Source: Deltaproteobacteria bacterium (GTDB lineage: Bacteria; Desulfobacterota; Desulfobacteria; Desulfobacterales; SpSt-501). Taken from it: a DNA stretch of 64,000 bases. Below are positions 10,607 through 25,414 of this stretch, piece after piece. The stretch spans positions 739-64,738 of the forward strand of contig JACRCN010000044.1 of NCBI GenBank assembly GCA_016219005.1, read 5' to 3'. Under the pieces are notes generated by a model. The model saw nothing but the letters and a program-made list of their open reading frames with translations. It had not been told where the DNA came from and did not search any database. The position numbers were made by a program, and so were the translations under genes. Position 1 is the stretch's first letter, and the number at the start of each line of letters is the position of its first letter.

Positions 10607-13177
10607 TCAGGCGGCCAGTGACTGAGTCTTCATGGCCCCGGCCTCGTCCCGGAGTCCTTCGCGACGTTCCGGTGTCGCGAAGCGCAGCAGTCCGCCCACG
10701 TCCAGGATCAATCCCACCCGGCCGTCCGGCAGGATAGCACCGCCGGAAATGCCGGGAATGTCCCTCATGGACTCTCCCAGGCTCTTGATGACCACCTGCT
10801 GACGCCCGACCAGCTCGTCGATGACGAGCCCGGCCTTGCGCTCCCCATCTTCCACCACCACCACGACCGCCCGGTCCAGATCGTCCGCGGCGTCCTGGAT
10901 GCCGTAGATCTGCGACATGCGGTACAGCGGGATGAGGTTGCCCTGCAGCAGGAGCATCTCGCCCTGCTGGAACACGGAGGAAACGTCACCGGGCGCGGGT
11001 TTCACCGAGCGGATGATCGAAATCGTCGGGATCACGTATGTCTCGCGGCCGACGTGGATCACCATGCCGTCGATGATCGCCAGGGTAAGCGGCAGGCTCA
11101 TCCTGAAAACACTCCCCCGGCCCAGTTCGGATTTGATTTCCACCTGCCCGCGCAGCAGTTCGATGTTCTTCTTGACCACGTCCATGCCCACGCCGCGGCC
11201 CGACACGTCGGTGACGACCTTGGCGGTGGAGAAGCCCGGCTCGAAAATCAAGTTGAACACTTCCCGGTCGCTCAGGCTGCGCTCGTCGAAGTCGGGAGCG
11301 TTGCTGATGAGCCCCCGTTCCTTGCCCTTGGCGATGAGCACATCGCGGTCCAGGCCCTTGCCGTCGTCGCTGATCTCCACGACCACGCTGCCGGCCGAGT
11401 GGTAGGCCGCGATCTTCACCGTCCCCTGCTCGGGTTTGCCGGCCGCCCGCCGTTCCTCCGGCGTTTCGATCCCGTGGTCCACGGCGTTGCGGACCATGTG
11501 CAGCAGCGGATCGTTGATGATGTCCACCAGGTTGCGGTCTATCTCGGTGTCTTCGCCTTCGGTGATAAAATCCACGTTTTTGTTCAGCTTGCGGGCCACA
11601 TCCCGCACCAGCCGGGCCATCTTGCTGAAGGTGGCTTTCAGCTCCACCATCCGCATGGACATGCTGATCTCCTGGAGCCCCCGAACGATCTTGGTGGTGT
11701 GGACGATTTTTTTGGCCAGGTCGTGATTCTGGCCGTCTACCACCCGGGCATCCTGGGCGACCATCGAGTGGGCGATGACGAGCTCGCCGACCATGTCGAT
11801 CAGCCGGTCCAACCGCTGCGTGCTCACCCGCACCGAGGCTTCGACAGCCTGGCCGCCGTCACGCATCTGCTTCTGGCTGCGCAGCGCCTGCCCCACGTCG
11901 GCAATACTAGCCGCCTGAGACTTGACCAGGGCGACACCCAACTTCTCCGTGGGGTGCTCGATCAGGGCTTGCTCAATCTGGCTCCGATCGACCTTGCCCT
12001 GGGCGACGAGGATGTCGCCGATGCGCGGTGAGCCAATGGTCTCCTGTTCCTCTGAGATGCCGGCCGCTTCCGGGTTTTTCAGCACCGCCAGGAGTTCGTC
12101 GTACCCCCTGGGCTTGGCCAAGGGCTCTCCGCCCAGCGCACGCTTCACGGCCTCCACCAAGGTCTTGATCATGTCCAGCCCCTGCAGCGACAGGTCCGCG
12201 TAACCGCCGCTGTAGCGGATCTCTCCATCGCGCACGCGGCTGAGCAGAGTCTCGGCATGATGTCCGAACTCCGCAATCAGGCGGAGCTCGAGAAAGCCCG
12301 AGGTGCCCTTGACGGTGTGAAAGGCACGGAAGACCTTGCCCACGGCTTCCGCATCCCCGGGGTCGTGCTCGAGGGACAGCAACGCCTCTTCCGCATTCTG
12401 GATGAGATCGGTGCTCTCGTTGATGAATTCGGCCATGAGGTCCAGGTCGAAGTTCTGGGGCATGTAATCGGCGACGGCCTCATCGGCCGGCACGCTGGAC
12501 ACGGAGGGGTCGGGAGATTTTTCGGCCGCCCGTTCCGGCACCGGTTCCGGACGTTCCTGCGCCGTGATGGCCTGATCCAGGAGAACACCGAGCGCACCGA
12601 TCGCCGCCTCCGGGTCGGACACCCTGCCGCCGCCAAGTTCCGCTGCGCGTTCGACGGCATCCTGCAAATGCCGCCGGCAGCCCTTTGGCAGTTCCTCGTC
12701 CAGGCCAAGACGCCGCAACTCCTTCTCCAGCCGCATCCACCCGTCGGTATCCGATGCCGTAAGCCGCATGAGGAGTGCTGCCGCGTCATCGAGCGTCAGT
12801 ACTTCCGCGGAGCCGGCGGGTGTATCCCCAGCGCGGTCCGGTTCAAAGACAGCCGCCAGCCGGTCGCCAGCCGCCGCCAACTCATCGCTCCCGGGGTGGC
12901 CGCCGTAGGCCCGCTCCGAGGCCTGCAACGCCCCGGCCAAGGCGTCCACGGCACCCAGCATGTCGGGTACCGAATTTCCAGCGAGATGCATCAACCCTTG
13001 CACGGCCTGCTCAAGCAGTGCTTTGGCCCCAGGCGGCTCGGCTGCCGCGGCCTTCGCCGCGCGCTGCACCTTGGCGGCCAGTTTTTTCCAGGCCCCTCGG
13101 TCGCTCACGCTGATGGCGTCCAGGTCTTCCAAAAGCTTTCTGAGTTTGTCTGTCACCTGTTGTCGGCCTTTGCCCAT
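10607..13177 (-). CDS. cheA: Chemotaxis histidine kinase CheA with an atypical ~245-aa N-terminal extension
   Basis: Hpt motif is KVFRAFHTVKGTSGFLEL. The dimerisation domain shows RVSTQRLDRLIDMVGELVI. HATPase motifs are HMVRNAVDHGIE and DDGKGLD...GRGVGMDVV. The C-terminal CheW-like domain shows LLLQGNLIPLYRM...GAILPDGRVGLILD. Start chosen at ATG 13175-13177 (GAGAGGA upstream). The 918-aa track ORF would overlap flgN. Confidence 0.9.
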   Translation of the reverse strand: MGKGRQQVTDKLRKLLEDLDAISVSDRGAWKKLAAKVQRAAKAAAAEPPGAKALLEQAVQGLMHLAGNSVPDMLGAVDALAGALQASERAYGGHPGSDELAAAGDRLAAVFEPDRAGDTPAGSAEVLTLDDAAALLMRLTASDTDGWMRLEKELRRLGLDEELPKGCRRHLQDAVERAAELGGGRVSDPEAAIGALGVLLDQAITAQERPEPVPERAAEKSPDPSVSSVPADEAVADYMPQNFDLDLMAEFINESTDLIQNAEEALLSLEHDPGDAEAVGKVFRAFHTVKGTSGFLELRLIAEFGHHAETLLSRVRDGEIRYSGGYADLSLQGLDMIKTLVEAVKRALGGEPLAKPRGYDELLAVLKNPEAAGISEEQETIGSPRIGDILVAQGKVDRSQIEQALIEHPTEKLGVALVKSQAASIADVGQALRSQKQMRDGGQAVEASVRVSTQRLDRLIDMVGELVIAHSMVAQDARVVDGQNHDLAKKIVHTTKIVRGLQEISMSMRMVELKATFSKMARLVRDVARKLNKNVDFITEGEDTEIDRNLVDIINDPLLHMVRNAVDHGIETPEERRAAGKPEQGTVKIAAYHSAGSVVVEISDDGKGLDRDVLIAKGKERGLISNAPDFDERSLSDREVFNLIFEPGFSTAKVVTDVSGRGVGMDVVKKNIELLRGQVEIKSELGRGSVFRMSLPLTLAIIDGMVIHVGRETYVIPTISIIRSVKPAPGDVSSVFQQGEMLLLQGNLIPLYRMSQIYGIQDAADDLDRAVVVVVEDGERKAGLVIDELVGRQQVVIKSLGESMRDIPGISGGAILPDGRVGLILDVGGLLRFATPERREGLRDEAGAMKTQSLAA

Positions 13178-13227
13178 TACCGGTTCCTCTCGTTTTCGAA
13201 TCGCTGCCCGACCGCTGTCGCGCCGCT

Positions 13228-13728
13228 TTATGCCTCGTCGCGGACCATCTTCCCGCTGAGCCGGGCCGCGTGAAAGCCACCCCCGCGATGGTAAACGGGG
13301 ACATTCACCATGAAACCCTGCAACAGGCGGTAGGCCCCCTGCAGGAGCTCGACGGCGTTGCAACAGAGGGCGTTGCTGCGCCGGTTTTCCTCGCGCAGCC
13401 GGCCGACGAGCCGGCCGAGGACCTCGCGGCAGCGCCGGAGTTCACCGGATAACGGCTCGGACGAACGCTGCGCAAGAAATTCCAGCGTGAGCGCTGCCGC
13501 CGGGACGCCCAGGGTCCGGGCCAGAACGTCGACCCGTGTAAGCCTCTGTTTTTCCAGGTCCTCCATGCGCCGCAGCAGCTCTTCCTTCTCGGCCGCCGCC
13601 GCCGCGGCCTCGGCCGGCTTAAACCGGATCAGCGCCCGGCGCTCCCGACCCATGACGGCCAGCAGATCCTCGTAGAGACCGGCCACCGCCCGCAGCAATT
13701 CCGTCATTTCACGCATACGTATGTACAT
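13228..13728 (-). CDS. flgN: FlgN-family flagellar export chaperone
   Basis: About 166 aa, helical: LLRAVAGLYEDLLAVMGRERRALIRF...EKEELLRRMEDLEKQRL...NRRSNALCCNAVELLQG. It sits at the head of a sigma-28-type transcription unit. GGAAGGA lies upstream of ATG 13726-13728. Confidence 0.65.
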   Translation of the reverse strand: MYIRMREMTELLRAVAGLYEDLLAVMGRERRALIRFKPAEAAAAAAEKEELLRRMEDLEKQRLTRVDVLARTLGVPAAALTLEFLAQRSSEPLSGELRRCREVLGRLVGRLREENRRSNALCCNAVELLQGAYRLLQGFMVNVPVYHRGGGFHAARLSGKMVRDEA

Positions 13729-20127: not shown

Positions 20128-20895
20128 TCAGTCGTCGTCCAGCAGTTGTTCCTTCCGCAGCTTTTTCCGCAGTCGCATGATGGCTTGGGAGTGAATCTGG
20201 GACACCCGCGATTCCGTAATGTGCATTACTTCGCCGGTTTCCTTCATGTTCAGCTCGTCGAGATAATACAGCGACATCACCAGCCGCTCCTTCTCGGGCA
20301 GCTGCTCGATGGCCCGCGCCAAGCCGGATCTGAGCTCCCGCAGGCGCGTCTGGGACAGCGCATCCTCCTCGTTGTGGATCAGGAAGTTCATCAACTTTTC
20401 CTTCTCATCCCGAGAGGATAGACCGAGTTCCTCGAAACTGATGAAGGAGATGCTGGACATCTGTCGGGTGCGGTGCAGGTCTTCGAGGTCGATGCCGAGT
20501 TCCGCGGCCACCTCGACGTCTTCCACCTCCCGGCCCAGCCGCTGCTCCATCTTCTGGCAGGTCTGCTCGAGCTCGCGCAGCTTGCGCCGACTCGAACGGG
20601 ACAGGAAATCCCGCGAGCGCAACTCGCTCAGCACGGCCCCCTTGATGCGAAAAATCGCATAGGTCATGAATTTGTTGTCACGCTTCGGGTCGAAGCGGTC
20701 GACGGCCTGGATCAAGCCCATGACCCCCACGTTCATCAGATCTTCCACGTCGACGCTCGCCGGCAGGTGGTTCGCGATGCGCTGGACGATGCGCTTCACA
20801 TAGGGCAAATATTCATGGATCAACTTCTCGCTGGTCGCGGGTCGCTTCTTGGCCGGAGGCCGTGGTCGTGCAGTTGCCAGTTGCATGCGCATCAT
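20128..20895 (-). CDS. fliA: Flagellar sigma factor sigma-28
   Basis: Region 2 shows DLMNVGVMGLIQAVDRFDP..FMTYAIFRIKGAVL. Region 4 shows LPEKERLVMSLYYLDELNMKETGEVMHITESRVSQIHSQAIMRLR. Confidence 0.95.
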   Translation of the reverse strand: MMRMQLATARPRPPAKKRPATSEKLIHEYLPYVKRIVQRIANHLPASVDVEDLMNVGVMGLIQAVDRFDPKRDNKFMTYAIFRIKGAVLSELRSRDFLSRSSRRKLRELEQTCQKMEQRLGREVEDVEVAAELGIDLEDLHRTRQMSSISFISFEELGLSSRDEKEKLMNFLIHNEEDALSQTRLRELRSGLARAIEQLPEKERLVMSLYYLDELNMKETGEVMHITESRVSQIHSQAIMRLRKKLRKEQLLDDD

Positions 20896-20922: not shown

Positions 20923-21852
20923 CTACATGGGGGTGGTACGAACCAGATGGTGCCAGAAAAAGTTGGTGTTGCCCTTCGGCCGGCTGGAGGGCTTTGTCAT
21001 GGCCATCCGCCGGGCCAGGTCCATGAAGCAGCGGCTGGCCTTGGAATCGGGGTAGAGATCGCTCACCAGCCGCTGGCGTTTGACCCCGCGGGTGACCTTG
21101 TCGTCGTAGAGGACGCTGCCGAGGTAATCGATGTGGATGTCCAGAAAACGGTCGGTGACCAGGACGAGCTGCCGGAAGACGTCCTCGCCCTCCCGGGCAC
21201 TGGCCACCATGTTGACCAGCAGTTTGCAGCTTTTCTCCGCGTATTTCAGGGACAGCACTTTCATGAGGGCATAGGCGTCCGTGATCGATGTGGGCTCAGG
21301 CGAAACTACGACGACGATCTCGTGGGCCATCACGTTGAAATCCATGACGTTGGTGGAAATGCCGGCCGCCGTGTCGATCAGCAGGATGTCCACGTCGTCG
21401 ATGAGCCGGTCGAGGTCGGTGAGGAACTGCACCTTCTGGTCATTGGTCAGATGGGTGAGCTCCTGGATGCCGGAGGACGCCGGCAGGATGCGCATCTTCC
21501 CCGGTCCCTTCTCCAGGATATCGGCGATGGACTTCTCCCCGCGAATGACGTGCGAAATGTTGAATTTCGGCGCGATCCCCAGCAGCACGTCCATGTTTCC
21601 CAGGCCGAGATCGGCATCCAAAACGAGCACCTTCTTCCCGAGATTGCTGAAGGCGAACCCCAGGTTGGCGACGATGTTGGTCTTGCCGACACCCCCCTTG
21701 CCGCTGGTGATGGCGATCACCCGCGCGTGGGTTTTACGCTGGCGCGAGGTTTCGCCCGCATCTCCCAGCCCGTCGCGGCGCGGCAGAGGAATCACTTTTT
21801 TCGAGGGGTCTTTCACGATCATGATGCCAGAGTCTCCTCGCTGGGGATCCAT
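20923..21852 (-). CDS. flhG: MinD/ParA-family flagellar number regulator
   Basis: Deviant Walker A is IAITSGKGGVGKT, followed by VLVLDADLGLGN. It follows flhF. The ATG shares one nt with the flhF TGA (TGATG). Confidence 0.9.
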   Translation of the reverse strand: MDPQRGDSGIMIVKDPSKKVIPLPRRDGLGDAGETSRQRKTHARVIAITSGKGGVGKTNIVANLGFAFSNLGKKVLVLDADLGLGNMDVLLGIAPKFNISHVIRGEKSIADILEKGPGKMRILPASSGIQELTHLTNDQKVQFLTDLDRLIDDVDILLIDTAAGISTNVMDFNVMAHEIVVVVSPEPTSITDAYALMKVLSLKYAEKSCKLLVNMVASAREGEDVFRQLVLVTDRFLDIHIDYLGSVLYDDKVTRGVKRQRLVSDLYPDSKASRCFMDLARRMAMTKPSSRPKGNTNFFWHHLVRTTPM

Positions 21853-23264
21853 CACCGGTAGCCGGAAATGCGGGCGCGATCCCGCACGACCGCGCCGTTG
21901 TCGACTTGGTCCGGTTGATCCGGGCCGCAATTCCGACAGGGCAGGAACCGCCGGGACTCGGCCTCTGCCACCGTTGCGAACGATATGAGATTATCGGACT
22001 TGATCTTCCGGACCCACTTGCAGCCGGGCAGGTGGTAGAGCTCGGAATTACGGTTGGCGACAAAGCGCGCGGAGTTCGTGCGGCCGGACAGGGTAGTGCC
22101 GTGCCGTTCGTCGCCCGGGCGCTCGTTGCGGACGGAGTCGGCCGCGGCTATCGGCAACATGCGGTCGAGCAACAGCTCCAGGGGCTCCGCGACGAGGTCT
22201 TCCGGAACCCGCGGGCCGGTGCTCACCCACGACACCGGCAGCTGCGTCTGGACCATGAGGTTGAGGACTACGCCCCAGGTGCCGGCTTCATCGAGCCGGG
22301 TGAAAACCAGGCGGTGGATCGCCACCCCCTTCCACGCATCGACGACTCGCCGCAGGTCCTTCTCCCGGCTGGCCGCGCTGAGCACCAGGTGGATCTCCCG
22401 GGAAGGCAGCATGTCCAGGATCGGCCGCAGCGCGCTGCGCCGGTCCGCCTCGCCCGGGCTGATGCCCGGGGTGTCCACTATCAGGGTGTCGGCATCGCCG
22501 AGATCCGCCAGAGCCCGGCGGGCCTCCTCCGGGGATGTGGCCACCGCCAGGGGAACTCCGAGAATGGCGGCATAGGTGCGGAGTTGCTCGATGGCGCCGA
22601 TGCGCACATCGTCCAGCGTCAGGAGGGCCGGCGTGCGCTGCTGCCGCAGCCGCAAGTCGGCCGCGAGCTTGATCGCGGTGGTCGTCTTGCCCACGCCGGC
22701 GGGACCCACCAGCACGATCGCCCGCGGACGAGGAACAGCGTCGGCCCGCCGCAGTCCCATGTCCTGAAGGATACCGGCCAGCAGCGCCCGGAGGCGCTCG
22801 GTCCCGTACCGCTGGTCATAGCCGGGCAGCCGTTTGAGGTGATCGACCAGGTCGGTAGCGAGCTCGCGCTCGAGGTCCTGCGCCAGCAGGTGCTGATAAA
22901 GCTCCGCCAGCTCCGGCGCCGCGCCGGCCTCGGAGGCGGGTGCCTCGACGGGCCGGCGCCGGACAGCGAGCGATCGCAGGCTTTGATTCAAGGATTGGAA
23001 GAGGCCGCGCCGGCCGTGGGCGGTCTGCGGCGCGAGCCTTTCAGGGGCCGGGACCGGCGCGTAGCTGCCGGTGGCAGTGTAGGCCACCGAGTCGCTGTCT
23101 TTCGCAGCGGTGACCTCCACCCCCGACATCGGTCCGGCGCTAAATATCCCACGCCCGCTCCGGAGGCTGCGGGCGGTCAGGATCACGGCATTCGGACCGA
23201 ACTCGTCCTTAACCATCTTCAGAGCCGCCGTCATGGTCTTGGCTTCAAACCGTTTAATCTGCAT
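21852..23264 (-). CDS. flhF: SRP-type GTPase FlhF with an extra C-terminal Ada-like zinc-ribbon tail
   Basis: MQIKRFEAKTMTAALKMVKDEFGPNAVIL, then GPAGVGKTTT, DTPG and LVFTRLDE. The tail reads SELYHLPGCKWVRKIKSDNLISFATVAEAESRRFLPCRNCGP. Confidence 0.9.
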   Translation of the reverse strand: MQIKRFEAKTMTAALKMVKDEFGPNAVILTARSLRSGRGIFSAGPMSGVEVTAAKDSDSVAYTATGSYAPVPAPERLAPQTAHGRRGLFQSLNQSLRSLAVRRRPVEAPASEAGAAPELAELYQHLLAQDLERELATDLVDHLKRLPGYDQRYGTERLRALLAGILQDMGLRRADAVPRPRAIVLVGPAGVGKTTTAIKLAADLRLRQQRTPALLTLDDVRIGAIEQLRTYAAILGVPLAVATSPEEARRALADLGDADTLIVDTPGISPGEADRRSALRPILDMLPSREIHLVLSAASREKDLRRVVDAWKGVAIHRLVFTRLDEAGTWGVVLNLMVQTQLPVSWVSTGPRVPEDLVAEPLELLLDRMLPIAAADSVRNERPGDERHGTTLSGRTNSARFVANRNSELYHLPGCKWVRKIKSDNLISFATVAEAESRRFLPCRNCGPDQPDQVDNGAVVRDRARISGYR

Positions 23265-25356
23265 CGGAGAGCTCCACGCTTCCCATCGATCGAATCTCGA
23301 CGTTGCTCAGGATTTCTTCATAGGACAGCACGCAGACGTTCGGGATAAACCGGTCCGTCAGCTTTTTAAACGCCGGCCGTACGGCCGAGGAGCAGATCAC
23401 CACCGCCTGCACGTTCATGGCTGTGGCGCGCTCCATCTGCCGCGCCAGGCTCTGTATCATGCGGTTGGCGAGCCCGGGGTCCAGAGCCAGGATGCGGCCG
23501 TGCTCGCCCTTTTGAAGCGCTTCGGCCAGGGCGGCCTCCACGCTGTGGCCCAGGGTGATCACCGGCAGGGTGGCATCCGGGGCCTGATGCATCTTGGTCA
23601 GCGTTCGCGCCAGACTGTGGCGCACCTGCTCGGTTAGCACGTCCGCGTCTTTGGTGTGCGGGGCCCAATCCCCCAGCGTCTCCAAAATGGCCAGCAGGTC
23701 ACGGATCGGGACCTGTTCGCGCAGCAGGTTGTGGAGCACCTTCACCACCAGGCCGAGCGATATCAGGTTCGGCACGAGTTCGTCCACCACCTTGGGGTGA
23801 CTTTGCTTCAGATAGTCCAGCATCAATTGGACTTCCTGGCGTCCCAGCAGCTCGCTCGCGTGCCGCCGGATGACCTCCGACAAGTGGGTGGTCATGATCG
23901 TAGCGGTGTCCACGACGGTGTACCCCTTGGCCAGTGCGTTTTCCTTGGCGCCTTCCTTGATCCAGGTCGCCGGCAGGCCGTAAGTCGGCTCCCGGGTGGA
24001 CACGCCGTCCAGCTTACCTTCGGCAGCACCCGGGTTCATGGCAAGGTAGTGACCCGGCATCAGCTCCCCGCGCGCGATCTCGTTGCCTTTCAGCAGGATG
24101 GTGTATTCGCCCGGGTTGAGCTGCATGTTGTCCTGGATGTGCACCGGCGGGATGATGATCCCGATTTCATGTGCCATCTGCCGCCGGATGGTCTTGATGC
24201 GATCGAGCAGCTCGCCGTTCTGCTCCGCGTCCACCAGGGGAATCAGGCCGTATCCGACCTCGATTGCCAGGATGTCGAGCGGCGGTAGCGAGGTGATGTG
24301 CTCGCGGGGCCCGGCCTTGTCCTCCTGAACCTTCTGCTCCTGCGCGCTCTGCACTTGCACCCGCTTGGCCTGGACGAGCACATAGGCCAGCCCGCCGGCC
24401 AACAGCGACAGCGTCATGAACGGCAGGCCGGGCAACCCCGGCATCAGGGCAAAGCCCAGGAGCACCACGGCGACCATCGCGATGGCCCGCGGATGGAAGA
24501 AGATCTGCGAGGAGATCTCGGCGCCCATGCTGGACTCGCTGCCGGCCCGGCTGACGATGAGGCCGGTTGCCGTGGACACGATCAGCGCGGGAATCTGGGC
24601 GACCAGGCCGTCGCCCACGGTGAGCAGGGTGTAGGTCTTGGCCGCACTGATAAACGGCATGTTCTGCTGAAACACTCCGATGGCCAGCCCGCCCAGGATG
24701 TTGATCAACGCAATGATGATGCCGGCCACCGCGTCGCCGCGCACGAACTTGTTGGCGCCGTCCATGGCCCCGTAGTACTCGGCCTCCCGGGACAGCGCCT
24801 CACGACGACTTCGCGCCTGCTGCTCGTTGATGAACCCGGCGTTCAGATCGGCGTCGATGCTCATCTGCTTTCCCGGCATGGCATCCAGCGTGAAGCGTGC
24901 GGCGACCTCTGCGATGCGGCCGGCACCCTTGGTGATAACCGAAAAGTTGATCACCACCAGGATCAGAAAGACGATCAGGCCGACCAGGTAATTGCCGCCA
25001 ACCACAAACCCGCCGAAGGCCTTGATGACCGTGCCCGCCGCCCCGGCGCCCTCGTTGCCGTGCAACAGGATGACCCGCGTCGTGGCGATGTTCAGCGACA
25101 GCCGGAAGAGTGTCGTGAGCAGCAGGATGGAAGGAAACGACGACAGCTCCAGAGGACGCTCGAGGTACATGGCGACCATCAGGATAACGAGCGAGAGGGT
25201 GATGTTGAAGACCAGAAGCAGGTCGAGCAGGATCGTGGGTAGCGGTATGACCATGAAGACCAGGATGCACACCACGACCCCGGCGAGGGCCACGTCGCTG
25301 TTCTTGGTCAAGAACGGAATCGGTCCGGCAATCGGCGCGCTCTGGGCGGTCACCAT
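23254..25356 (-). CDS. flhA: Flagellar type III export gate protein
   Basis: RPLELSSFPSILLLTTLFRLSLNIATTRVIL...GAGRIAEVAARFTLDAMPGKQMSIDADL...ANKFVRGDAVAG. ATG 25356 (AGGA upstream) is preferred over GTG 25365. Confidence 0.97.
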   Translation of the reverse strand: MVTAQSAPIAGPIPFLTKNSDVALAGVVVCILVFMVIPLPTILLDLLLVFNITLSLVILMVAMYLERPLELSSFPSILLLTTLFRLSLNIATTRVILLHGNEGAGAAGTVIKAFGGFVVGGNYLVGLIVFLILVVINFSVITKGAGRIAEVAARFTLDAMPGKQMSIDADLNAGFINEQQARSRREALSREAEYYGAMDGANKFVRGDAVAGIIIALINILGGLAIGVFQQNMPFISAAKTYTLLTVGDGLVAQIPALIVSTATGLIVSRAGSESSMGAEISSQIFFHPRAIAMVAVVLLGFALMPGLPGLPFMTLSLLAGGLAYVLVQAKRVQVQSAQEQKVQEDKAGPREHITSLPPLDILAIEVGYGLIPLVDAEQNGELLDRIKTIRRQMAHEIGIIIPPVHIQDNMQLNPGEYTILLKGNEIARGELMPGHYLAMNPGAAEGKLDGVSTREPTYGLPATWIKEGAKENALAKGYTVVDTATIMTTHLSEVIRRHASELLGRQEVQLMLDYLKQSHPKVVDELVPNLISLGLVVKVLHNLLREQVPIRDLLAILETLGDWAPHTKDADVLTEQVRHSLARTLTKMHQAPDATLPVITLGHSVEAALAEALQKGEHGRILALDPGLANRMIQSLARQMERATAMNVQAVVICSSAVRPAFKKLTDRFIPNVCVLSYEEILSNVEIRSMGSVELSDAD

Positions 25357-25414
25357 GCTGCTCACATCCTGGGAATCGATCGTGACGAGTCACCTTAAAA
25401 CCAGACCCTGACTC

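What the first reader, a model, noticed from the sequence alone, without database searches (positions are those of the whole stretch)
21852..23264. FlhF carries a C-terminal Ada-type zinc-ribbon tail
After the SRP-type GTPase core ends (about ...VPEDLVAEPLELLLDRML), roughly 95 extra residues follow. They include SELYHLPGCKWVRKIKSDNLISFATVAEAESRRFLPCRNCGP (21921-22046).

The pattern YH-x3-C ... N-x3-F-x5-EA ... PC-x2-C matches the small metal-binding fold of the Ada N-terminal domain and its stand-alone relatives. FlhF determines flagellar position and number. A nucleic-acid or phospholipid-binding Zn module fused to it is not part of the canonical protein and may provide a new localisation or regulatory handle.
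Basis: partly seen in the sequence, partly recalled or inferred. Interest (0 to 1): 0.6.

Follow-up and report, generated by a model that had tools for sequence, protein, structure and literature searches.

The report
FlhF with Ada-like zinc tail
In a large group of sulfate-reducing bacteria, FlhF (the GTPase that decides where flagella are built) ends in a small conserved zinc-binding module related to the DNA-repair protein Ada, and in the same group its partner FlhG lacks the motif that normally switches FlhF off, so this well-studied switch probably works differently here.

Summary
ORF 21852-23264 (-) is a 470-aa FlhF in an flhB-flhA-flhF-flhG-fliA cluster.

After the G domain come a disordered ~27-aa linker, a 50-aa module (residues 400-449) and a disordered 21-aa end. 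The module passes Pfam's Ada_Zn_binding threshold. By profile it hits only N-Ada in the PDB, and its AF2 model superposes on N-Ada (TM 0.75).

The metal ligands are His411, Cys415, Cys443 and Cys446. Ada's methyl-acceptor Cys38 is a His here, so this is not a repair domain. It belongs to the widespread His/Cys3 "ADA_N-like" add-on modules.

It is not an artefact. 119 of the 120 closest homologues carry it, and 60 non-identical FlhF sequences from species-level genomes keep it without indels.

The fusion is confined to one clade of Desulfobacterales (22 family codes, 16 with the tail). On an FlhF tree built without the tail columns, one well-supported branch separates this clade. On that same branch FlhG changes: the DQAxxLR enhancer motif (0/57 versus 51/51) is replaced by xNKVIxLxRR. 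Eight nested lineages lack the tail but keep the new FlhG.

The function is untested. I favour a tethered polyanion or nucleic-acid-binding handle in a rewired FlhF-FlhG switch. The papers searched do not describe it.

The parts
21852..23264 (-). flhF, 470 aa plus stop. The start overlaps the end of flhA by 11 nt.
   Evidence: ORF. NCBIfam TIGR03499 FlhF scores 192.9 bits against a cut-off of 174.15. The AF2 model's best PDB matches are the FlhF structures 2px3, 2px0 and 8r9r, with TM on the target of 0.81-0.82.
23100..23264 (-). Residues 1-55: structured N-terminal part of the B domain (MQIKRFEAKTM...). It corresponds in position to the FliG-interacting domain of other FlhFs.
   Evidence: AF2 pLDDT is about 88-92, with strands and a helix. 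It is the most conserved N-terminal block in alignment A1. The FID concept comes from PMC12826062. FliG binding was not tested.
22920..23099 (-). Residues 56-115: disordered, variable B-domain linker.
   Evidence: pLDDT is below 50. The columns are variable in A1.
22149..22919 (-). Residues 116-372: NG domain. It holds the P-loop GPAGVGKT (187-194), DDVRIGAIEQL, DTPG (264-267) and TRLDE (322-326).
   Evidence: Pfam SRP54 covers residues 181-370, E 3.4e-30. The motif columns are invariant. The fold matches FlhF and SRP GTPases.
22068..22148 (-). Residues 373-399: flexible, poorly conserved linker between the G domain and the zinc module.
   Evidence: pLDDT is below 50 for residues 375-397. The columns are variable in A1.
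21918..22067 (-). Residues 400-449: ADA_N-like His/Cys3 module. The putative Zn ligands are H411 (22032-22034), C415 (22020-22022), C443 (21936-21938) and C446 (21927-21929).
   Evidence: PF02805 matches residues 400-449 at 25.3/29.0 bits against a cut-off of 23. The HMMER alignments to 1adn put H411, C415, C443 and C446 on Ada C38, C42, C69 and C72. AF2 pLDDT is 85-92. Foldseek's top four hits are N-Ada. The module is 50 aa without indels, and H+3C is invariant in 60 of 60 tails.
21855..21917 (-). Residues 450-470: disordered C-terminal end, finishing in a weakly conserved ...R-I-S-G-Y-R.
   Evidence: pLDDT is below 50. Many but not all relatives end in (I/L)(S/A)(G/S)Y(R/S).
20923..21822 (-). 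flhG (MinD-like ATPase, 299 aa), starting 29 nt after the flhF stop and preceded by GGAG. It has no DQAxxLR motif.
   Evidence: Pfam AAA_31, CbiA and ParA match. The N-terminus reads MIVKDPSKKVIPLPRRDG...RVIAITSGKGGVGKT. No other MinD-type frame in the genome has DQAxxLR upstream of its Walker A.
21775..21804 (-). FlhG residues 7-16, SKKVIPLPRR: a clade-specific N-terminal motif in the place of the DQAxxLR enhancer helix.
   Evidence: The consensus x(N/K)(K/N)(V/I)I x L x (R/K)(R/K) is present in all 57 tail-bearing pairs and in the 8 tail-less members of the same clade. It is absent from the 51 canonical pairs.
23254..25365 (-). flhA (FHIPEP), directly upstream.
   Evidence: Pfam FHIPEP, E 1e-274.
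20128..20895 (-). fliA-type sigma factor, directly downstream of flhG.
   Evidence: Pfam Sigma70 regions r2, r3 and r4 match.

Best explanation
Shown.
- This is a genuine FlhF (FID-linker-N-G) to which a 50-residue ADA_N-like zinc module has been added at the C-terminus on a flexible ~27-residue tether.
- The module was most probably captured from the small exported His/Cys3 modules common in the same phylum.
- The fusion arose once, at or near the base of a large Desulfobacterales clade, and is kept under strong constraint.
- On the same branch FlhG exchanged its DQAxxLR enhancer helix for an xNKVIxLxRR motif, and the FlhF G domain changed near its active-site motifs (DTAG to DTPG; TNGQ to (S)TG(P)R).

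Inferred.
- The module is a structural Zn(His)(Cys)3 site, not a methyl acceptor, because His replaces Ada's nucleophilic Cys38.
- A neutral His at that position gives the metal centre the same net charge as methylated Ada, which is the strong DNA-binding form.
- The module carries a conserved basic cluster around the metal site (C-K-W-x-R/K-K-I-K and C-R-x-C).
- I therefore think it most likely works as a tethered binder of a polyanionic surface, most probably a nucleic-acid backbone (DNA or RNA/ribosome). The GTP-bound FlhF dimer would then have two such handles, and so a nucleotide-state-dependent extra anchor.
- GTPase control by FlhG would run through a route other than the canonical co-catalytic glutamine.

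My odds: real conserved Ada-like non-catalytic Zn module in a rewired FlhF-FlhG pair, about 0.95. Ligand is nucleic acid or another polyanion, about 0.4-0.45.
For: Identity of FlhF.

Identity of the module. PF02805 scores above its cut-off. The only PDB hits by sequence profile are N-Ada, E 2.4e-5. Foldseek's top four are N-Ada, TMq 0.75. The module is confidently folded while its flanks are disordered.

His at Cys38. This is seen in the alignments. Cys38 is the methyl acceptor, and methylated N-Ada is a potent DNA binder (PMC10814553).

Conservation. 119/120 homologues carry the motif. 60/60 non-identical tails have H+3C, a length of 50 aa and a mean net charge of +2.7.

Clade structure. On the tree built from B-N-G columns only, one branch with 98% SH-aLRT support splits 51 canonical pairs from 68 variant pairs. 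FlhG type changes once and the tail changes 5 times. The contingency is tail/noDQA 57, tail/DQA 0, no tail/DQA 51, no tail/noDQA 8.

Pointers to DNA or RNA as ligand. Among 97 non-FlhF relatives of the module, 12 carry an SNase domain and 3 a metallo-beta-lactamase domain (the kind found in ComEC). NCBIfam holds models for ribosomal proteins L4, L17, L20 and S2 with a related 'sunset' end domain. ECOD lists ComEC and L4 fusions (PMC12353581).

Own genome. It has one FlhF, one FlhG-like gene without DQAxxLR, and one Ada-like module.
Against: - No binding experiment exists for any His/Cys3 ADA_N-like module. ECOD states their function is undetermined.
- The closest non-FlhF relatives in the same phylum are small proteins with signal peptides. 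Many others are lipoproteins or secreted arrays. Their natural ligand is therefore not obviously nucleic acid.
- Net charge is only moderately positive and ranges from -3 to +6.
- Eight nested lineages lack the module yet keep the new FlhG N-terminus. The tail is therefore dispensable and not obligatorily coupled to the FlhG change.
- The tail/FlhG association rests on a single evolutionary event, so it is co-inheritance, not replicated correlation.
Confidence: 0.55

Rival explanations
1. Protein-protein docking module. The zinc module binds a protein partner, and nucleic acids play no part. The partner could be a polar landmark, a flagellar basal-body or C-ring component, or FlhG itself (for example its new KVIxL N-terminal strand, by beta-augmentation).
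For: In other bacteria FlhF works as a tether between landmark proteins and FliG (PMC12826062), so an added protein-binding handle would fit the known logic. The tail and the new FlhG N-terminus appear on the same branch. Relatives of the module sit on pilins, cell-wall-binding proteins and secreted arrays, where protein or envelope ligands are plausible.
Against: The eight tail-less lineages keep the FlhG KVIxL motif unchanged. That argues against the tail being the motif's obligatory partner. No candidate partner gene was found to be specific to tail-bearing loci. The conserved surface features are mostly basic.
Confidence: 0.27
2. Membrane handle. The basic/aromatic patch (C-K-W-x-R-K-I-K) binds anionic phospholipids of the inner membrane. 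It would hold GTP-bound FlhF dimers at the (polar) membrane.
For: A conserved Trp lies next to four basic positions beside the metal site. The closest relatives are exported small proteins that could sit on membrane surfaces. FlhG and FtsY are known to use amphipathic membrane-targeting sequences.
Against: The Trp is replaced by A, S, K or C in several tail-bearing families. No amphipathic helix is predicted; the segment is part of a compact fold. No lipid-binding precedent exists for this fold.
Confidence: 0.1
3. Redox or zinc sensor. The Zn(His)(Cys)3 site is a labile switch, in the manner of Hsp33 or ZAS anti-sigma factors. Oxidation or zinc loss would unfold the module and alter FlhF activity in these strict anaerobes.
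For: The His-x3-Cys plus Cys-x2-Cys ligand chemistry is of the kind used by thiol-based switches (own knowledge). The hosts are anaerobic sulfate reducers (record titles).
Against: No sequence or fold relation to known redox-switch domains was found; only N-Ada matched. The same module is common in exported proteins, which sit in oxidising or variable environments.
Confidence: 0.06
4. True Ada-like alkylation sensor. The module accepts a methyl group from methylphosphotriesters in DNA and couples alkylation damage to flagellar assembly.
For: The module passes the Pfam Ada_Zn_binding threshold and has the N-Ada fold. Three cysteine ligands remain. ECOD speculates that ADA_N-like domains could sense alkylated DNA.
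Against: The nucleophilic Cys38 is His in 60 of 60 tails. There is no HTH/AraC domain and no AGT domain. No Ada protein is encoded in this genome.
Confidence: 0.02
5. Artefact. A sequencing frameshift or assembly chimera joined flhF to a separate small ORF.
For: None was found. One same-genus genome (G016) does have flhF split over two frames. One metagenomic ORF joins the FlhA end to a tail. Such errors or rearrangements therefore do occur.
Against: The same uninterrupted architecture is seen in 119 of 120 homologues from independent assemblies, and in 60 non-identical FlhFs of species-level genomes, including closed chromosomes and the cultured Desulfosarcina sp. BuS5.
Confidence: 0.005

Closest known systems
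N-terminal zinc domain of E. coli Ada (N-Ada10; PDB 1adn, 1eyf, 1u8b, 1zgw, 1wpk; Pfam PF02805)
   Same: Same fold: a small beta-sheet plus a C-terminal helix carrying C-x2-C. The four ligand positions have the same spacing, and the surface around the metal is basic. This is the only PDB family hit by sequence profile and by structure.
   Different: The first ligand is His, not the methyl-accepting Cys38. The first ~16 positions of the Pfam model are missing (match 17-65 of 65). The module is C-terminal, not N-terminal. It is not followed by HTH/AraC or methyltransferase domains. Identity is about 25-29%.
ADA_N-like / 'sunset'-type add-on modules (ECOD X-group 'ADA_N-like domains', Pei et al. 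2025, PMC12353581; NCBIfam NF051437 and the L4/L17/L20/S2 sunset variants; exported 'YH-x3-C...C-x2-C' modules)
   Same: They share the typical C-terminal add-on position and the His/Cys3 ligand pattern. The motif (V/I)(G/A)(S/N)xxSxxYHxxxC...I...N...F...EA...PCxxCxP is shared. Identity to small exported single-module proteins of the same phylum is 39-47%, including C(K/R)W..KIK..NL..F.
   Different: The host protein (FlhF) is new for this module: it is not in ECOD's list nor in the flagellar review. The module is cytoplasmic, whereas most close relatives are exported. It scores below the NCBIfam 'sunset' cut-off (16.3 against 27 bits). It keeps an intact metal site, unlike the L4 and ArfC versions.
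Canonical FlhF-FlhG switch (B. subtilis, Shewanella, Vibrio, Pseudomonas; FlhG enhancer helix DQAxxLR)
   Same: Same gene order, flhA-flhF-flhG-fliA. FlhF has a structured N-terminal domain, a linker and an NG domain. FlhG is a MinD-type ATPase with the deviant Walker A motif.
   Different: FlhF has an extra C-terminal zinc module. FlhG lacks DQAxxLR and its co-catalytic Gln, and has xNKVIxLxRR instead. The G domain differs at DTAG/DTPG and TNGQ/(S)TG(P)R.
Ffh/SRP54 M domain (works-like comparison only)
   Same: In both, a domain attached by a flexible linker follows the NG domain of an SRP-family GTPase. In SRP that domain binds RNA, and the RNA supplies the GTPase-activating base that FlhG's Gln replaces in canonical FlhF.
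   Different: There is no sequence or fold relation. No RNA partner is known, and Rfam finds nothing in the window. This is an analogy, not homology.

Membership tests
FlhF (SRP-type flagellar GTPase; NCBIfam TIGR03499) | Score above the curated equivalog cut-off | tested here: met
   192.9 bits against a cut-off of 174.15, covering residues 1-267.
FlhF (SRP-type flagellar GTPase; NCBIfam TIGR03499) | SRP54-type NG fold with the G1, IBD, G3 and G4 motifs | tested here: met
   PF00448 matches at E 3e-30. GPAGVGKT, DDVRIGAIEQL, DTPG and TRLDE are present. The AF2 model matches FlhF structures 2px3, 2px0 and 8r9r.
FlhF (SRP-type flagellar GTPase; NCBIfam TIGR03499) | Flagellar gene context, between flhA and flhG | tested here: met
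   The gene order is flhB-flhA-flhF-flhG-fliA-flgF/G-flgA-flgH-flgI.
FlhF (SRP-type flagellar GTPase; NCBIfam TIGR03499) | GTP-dependent homodimer that directs MS-ring and flagellum placement | not testable with these tools
   Needs biochemistry and cell biology.
Canonical FlhF-FlhG switch | FlhG N-terminal enhancer helix with DQAxxLR (co-catalytic Gln) | tested here: not met
   The motif is absent from the window's FlhG and from every MinD-type frame of the genome. It is absent in 57/57 tail-bearing pairs and present in 51/51 canonical pairs of the same order.
Ada_Zn_binding (Pfam PF02805) | HMM score at or above the gathering threshold | tested here: met
   25.3 bits for the whole protein and 29.0 bits for the tail alone, against a threshold of 23. 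The match covers model positions 17-65 of 65.
Ada_Zn_binding (Pfam PF02805) | N-Ada fold | tested here: met
   Foldseek's top four hits are 1u8b, 1wpk, 1zgw and 1adn, with TMq 0.65-0.75 and probability 1.00. This rests on a predicted model with mean pLDDT 78.
Ada_Zn_binding (Pfam PF02805) | Four cysteine ligands (C38, C42, C69, C72) | tested here: not met
   The aligned residues are H411, C415, C443 and C446. His is invariant in 60/60 tails.
Ada (methylphosphotriester repair / adaptive-response regulator) | Nucleophilic Cys38 methyl acceptor | tested here: not met
   His occupies that position. The role of Cys38 is taken from PMC10814553.
Ada (methylphosphotriester repair / adaptive-response regulator) | Downstream HTH/AraC domain and O6-alkylguanine transferase domain | tested here: not met
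   Only 21 disordered residues follow the module. No such Pfam hit was found.
ADA_N-like domains (ECOD X-group) / His-Cys3 add-on modules | Ada-N fold used as a (mostly C-terminal) add-on, with a variable or partly altered ligand set | tested here: met
   The module is C-terminal, has the fold and has the H/C3 pattern shared with 1,621 representative proteins at E<=1e-3.
NCBIfam 'sunset' domain (NF051437) | Score at or above the curated cut-off | tested here: not met
   16.3 bits against a cut-off of 27. Related exported modules do pass (31.4 bits).
Zinc-binding protein in general | Stoichiometric metal bound | not testable with these tools
   Needs ICP-MS or a PAR assay on purified protein.

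The most novel reading that the evidence does not exclude
The clade has partly reverted FlhF to an SRP-like, nucleic-acid-dependent mode. The tethered zinc module sits where Ffh carries its RNA-binding M domain. It would bind RNA, either ribosomal or messenger RNA of early flagellar proteins, or a dedicated small RNA. This would tether FlhF to translating ribosomes for co-translational capture of FliF/FlhA at the pole. It might also bring in a nucleotide base that replaces the lost co-catalytic glutamine of FlhG as GTPase activator.
Probability: 0.08. Interest if true: 0.9.

Novelty: new variant of a known kind. Interest (0 to 1): 0.6.

Why it matters
FlhF-FlhG is the textbook switch for where and how many flagella a bacterium builds. 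Its current model has two fixed points. FlhF is B-N-G only, and FlhG's DQAxxLR glutamine turns FlhF off, as a protein stand-in for SRP RNA.

Here a whole clade breaks both rules at once. The clade covers 22 of 53 FlhF-bearing family codes sampled in Desulfobacterales, which are environmentally dominant sulfate reducers. That gives a natural experiment on how an SRP-family GTPase changes its activator.

It also offers the first cytoplasmic, functionally framed host for the widespread but functionless His/Cys3 ADA_N-like module. Finding what the FlhF tail binds would probably assign a function to thousands of such modules.

The question can be tested directly with recombinant proteins. At least one cultured carrier exists (Desulfosarcina sp. 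BuS5).

Tried and rejected
1. Frameshift or chimera: rejected.
2. A functional Ada repair domain: rejected, because Cys38 is His and there are no HTH or AGT domains.
3. Filing under the NCBIfam 'sunset' domain: the score is below the cut-off, so I use the broader ADA_N-like label.
4. 'The new FlhG N-terminal motif is the tail's ligand': weakened, because 8 tail-less lineages keep the motif.
5. 'The tail-less clade members have the module as a separate neighbouring gene': no such ORF lies within about 5 kb. One of these genomes (G087) has no match anywhere.
6. Other copies of the module or of FlhG/FlhF in the window's genome: none.
7. A known RNA near flhF: no Rfam hit in the window.
8. Literature: no paper links FlhF with a zinc or Ada domain, or with these taxa. 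'Sunset domain' and 'ArfC' searches gave nothing relevant. He et al. 2005 is not held.
9. Inter-domain docking of the tail on NG could not be judged.
10. The look-up of earlier findings by sequence found nothing. The look-up by words gave the FlhG lead.
Full report
**1. What is there**

The minus-strand ORF 21852..23264 is open and encodes 470 aa. It lies in a flagellar cluster with the order flhB, flhA (FHIPEP, E 1e-274), this gene, a MinD-like ATPase (flhG), a fliA-type sigma factor, then rod, P-ring and L-ring genes. Its ATG overlaps the end of flhA by 11 nt. flhG starts 29 nt after its stop, behind a GGAG.

The protein passes NCBIfam's FlhF equivalog (TIGR03499, 192.9 bits against 174.15). 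It has an SRP54-type G domain (residues 181-370, E 3e-30). Its AF2 model is most similar to the FlhF crystal structures 2px3, 2px0 and 8r9r.

The quoted peptide is residues 407-448 and maps exactly to 21921-22046.

**2. Anatomy of the extension**

AF2 was run on a 59-sequence alignment (mean pLDDT 76). It predicts these parts:
- a structured N-terminal domain (residues 1-55);
- a disordered B linker;
- the NG domain, to about residue 372;
- a disordered linker (375-397);
- a confidently folded module (400-449, pLDDT ~88-92);
- a disordered end (450-470).

The module alone folds the same way.

**3. What the module is**

- Pfam Ada_Zn_binding matches residues 400-449 above its gathering score (25.3 bits in context, 29.0 alone, cut-off 23). 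The match covers model positions 17-65 of 65.
- A profile of 20 tails hits nothing in the PDB except the four N-Ada sequences (E 2.4e-5 to 1.1e-4).
- Foldseek with the tail model returns N-Ada as its four best hits. The best is 1u8b (TMq 0.75, rmsd 1.9 A over 52 columns, probability 1.00). Everything else has E above 1.
- The HMMER alignments put H411, C415, C443 and C446 on Ada's C38, C42, C69 and C72.
- Cys38 is Ada's methyl acceptor, and methylated N-Ada is the strong DNA binder (PMC10814553). The ECOD paper names Cys69 instead; that cysteine is kept here.

With His at position 38, and with no HTH or AGT domain after the module, this is not an Ada repair/regulator domain. It is a member of the broader ADA_N-like group. 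ECOD describes that group as a mostly C-terminal add-on with undetermined function, and does not list FlhF among its hosts (PMC12353581). 'Zinc ribbon' is a loose name: ECOD likens the fold to a treble clef without the hairpin.

**4. Relatives of the module**

phmmer of the 60-aa tail against 1.84 billion representative proteins gives 1,621 hits at E<=1e-3. Besides FlhFs, these include:
- proteins with up to 7 tandem copies;
- many proteins with signal peptides or lipoprotein boxes.

Of 97 non-FlhF relatives scanned, 94 match PF02805, 24 DUF6233, 12 SNase and 3 a metallo-beta-lactamase domain of the kind found in ComEC.

NCBIfam calls related modules 'sunset' and has models for L4, L17, L20 and S2 variants carrying one. 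The FlhF tail itself is below that cut-off (16.3 against 27).

In other families of the same phylum, the nearest relatives (39-47% identity) are 80-136-aa proteins with a signal peptide and a single module. They share even the C(K/R)W..KIK..NL..F signature. That is the likely source of the FlhF tail.

**5. Real and conserved**

- 119 of the 120 best homologues (37-95% identical, from ENA, JGI, NCBI and Logan assemblies) carry YH-x3-C...C-x2-C. The exception is a 305-aa fragment.
- In the 59-sequence alignment the module is among the best-conserved parts of the protein. The invariant residues are A403, S407, Y410, H411, C415, I421, K422, F429, A435, C443, R444 and C446. The linker is variable.
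- All 35 GTDB species loci found with a tail pattern have the module at the end of an FlhF frame.
- Across 60 non-identical tails from species-level genomes, the module is always 50 aa with no indel. His+3Cys is invariant, and the mean net charge is +2.7.
- The record titles are all uncultured Desulfobacterales-type MAGs. One cultured carrier was identified, Desulfosarcina sp. BuS5 (WP_027352942.1, annotated simply as FlhF).

**6. Distribution**

- Every same-genus genome has the tail.
- In an even sample of 201 genomes of the order, 105 have FlhF. By my count 33 of these match through the tail.
- In 401 genomes across the phylum, FlhF-sized frames with the module occur only inside this order.
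- The window's genome has one FlhF, one FlhG-like gene and one Ada-like module, and no Ada.

**7. The partner changes too**

I tested this here.

The window's FlhG begins MIVKDPSKKVIPLPRRDG... and has no DQAxxLR. I fetched the flhF-flhG region from 90 further genomes of the order and added the 35 earlier loci. After removing identical FlhFs, 119 sequences remain, counting the window's. They sort as follows:

| FlhF tail | FlhG DQAxxLR | Count |
|---|---|---|
| present | absent | 57 |
| present | flhG off the contig | 3 |
| present | present | 0 |
| absent | present | 51 |
| absent | absent | 8 |

All 65 DQA-less FlhGs carry x(N/K)(K/N)(V/I)I-x-L-x-(R/K)(R/K) at the corresponding place.

I built a maximum-likelihood tree on the B-N-G columns only, leaving the tail out. 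One branch with 98% SH-aLRT support splits the 51 canonical pairs from the 68 others. On this tree FlhG type changes once and the tail changes 5 times. The eight tail-less rows are nested among tail-bearing ones. That is most simply one gain and about four losses, although the root is not inferred.

No family code occurs on both sides of the split: 22 family codes are variant, of which 16 have the tail, and 31 are canonical. The tail-less variant loci have no separate module gene nearby. One such genome (G087) has no match anywhere.

The two groups also differ in the G domain: DTAG against DTPG, and TNGQ.VPEDI against (S)TG(P)RVPEDL.

The Dec 2025 review of the system describes FlhF as B-N-G. 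It describes the DQAxxLR glutamine as the co-catalytic element that functionally replaces the SRP-RNA base. It mentions no zinc domain and no Desulfobacterota (PMC12826062).

**8. How it most likely works**

*Shown.* The module is independently folded, tethered and strongly constrained. It has an intact His/Cys3 site and a conserved basic cluster next to that site. It was added to FlhF in a lineage whose FlhG lacks the canonical activator.

*Inferred.*
- (a) It is structural, not catalytic, because His is at the Cys38 position.
- (b) A neutral His gives the metal centre the same net charge (-1) as S-methylated Ada, the high-affinity DNA-binding state. This follows from the electrostatic-switch model of He et al. 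2005, cited. I could not read that paper.
- (c) N-Ada contacts the DNA backbone, and relatives of the module are fused to nucleases, ComEC and ribosomal proteins. The most likely ligand is therefore a nucleic-acid backbone or another polyanion.
- (d) A GTP-bound FlhF dimer would present two tails, so binding would depend on nucleotide state.

*Against.* The closest relatives are exported proteins. The charge is only moderately positive. Eight lineages do without the tail. Nothing has been measured.

The FlhG KVIxL motif survives without the tail, so the tail is probably not its obligatory partner. The tail/FlhG association is a single evolutionary event. It is co-inheritance, not replicated correlation.

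**9. Rivals**

| Explanation | My odds |
|---|---|
| Protein-docking handle | ~0.27 |
| Anionic-membrane handle | ~0.10 |
| Redox or zinc switch | ~0.06 |
| True alkylation sensor | ~0.02 |
| Artefact | <0.01 |

**10. Novelty and verdict**

Databases already show the two Pfam domains side by side, and a few records are named 'Ada metal-binding domain-containing protein'. I found no paper that describes the fusion or the DQAxxLR-less FlhG of this clade.

It is a new variant of a known system, not a new kind of system. It is testable with recombinant proteins, and it bears on how SRP-family GTPases change activators.

Interest 0.6.

Noticed in passing
window 10607-13363 (-): CheA-like ORF of 918 aa, as listed from a TTG start. 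The Hpt domain matches only at residues 308-405, followed by the dimerisation, HATPase and CheW domains. Either the true start lies further downstream, or about 300 unassigned residues precede Hpt.
   Followed up: no
P0195 (125-aa metagenomic ORF): The sequence reads as the C-terminal end of FlhA (...VILCSAQIRSHFKKLIDRFISN), directly followed by an FlhF-type zinc tail (FVANQNSDVFHKPGCKW...). The whole FlhF core is missing. It is either a natural in-frame deletion or an assembly chimera.
   Followed up: no
G016:C39:15390-16704 (same genus as the window): flhF is split over two overlapping frames: query residues 1-313 and 302-448. This is a frameshift or sequencing error in that assembly. The tail part is still present.
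   Followed up: no
L092 (G062:C103): This variant-clade FlhF (428 aa) has no zinc module, yet still ends in ...QTGGYR, like the ...ISGYR end of tail-bearing FlhFs. The extreme C-terminal peptide may be a separate short motif that outlived the module.
   Followed up: partly
L035 (JBLMXM010000089.1): The contig is labelled 'Hyphomicrobiales bacterium MAG256'. Its FlhF (with tail) and FlhG nest inside the Desulfatibacillum-labelled clade next to the window. The contig is probably mis-binned or the bin mislabelled.
   Followed up: no
L142-L147 (other families of the phylum): These are small proteins of about 80-100 aa, each with a signal peptide and one His/Cys3 module. The module is very like the FlhF tail (for example CRWAQKIKSENLVTF). 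They are likely donors of the tail, and their function is unknown.
   Followed up: partly
window 22149-22730 (-), FlhF G domain: The variant clade differs from canonical FlhFs of the same order at conserved motifs: DTAG to DTPG, and TNGQ.VPEDI to (S)TG(P)RVPEDL. I did not map these positions onto the FlhF-FlhG peptide structure.
   Followed up: partly
window 1-64000: No Rfam family reaches its gathering score anywhere in the window.
   Followed up: yes
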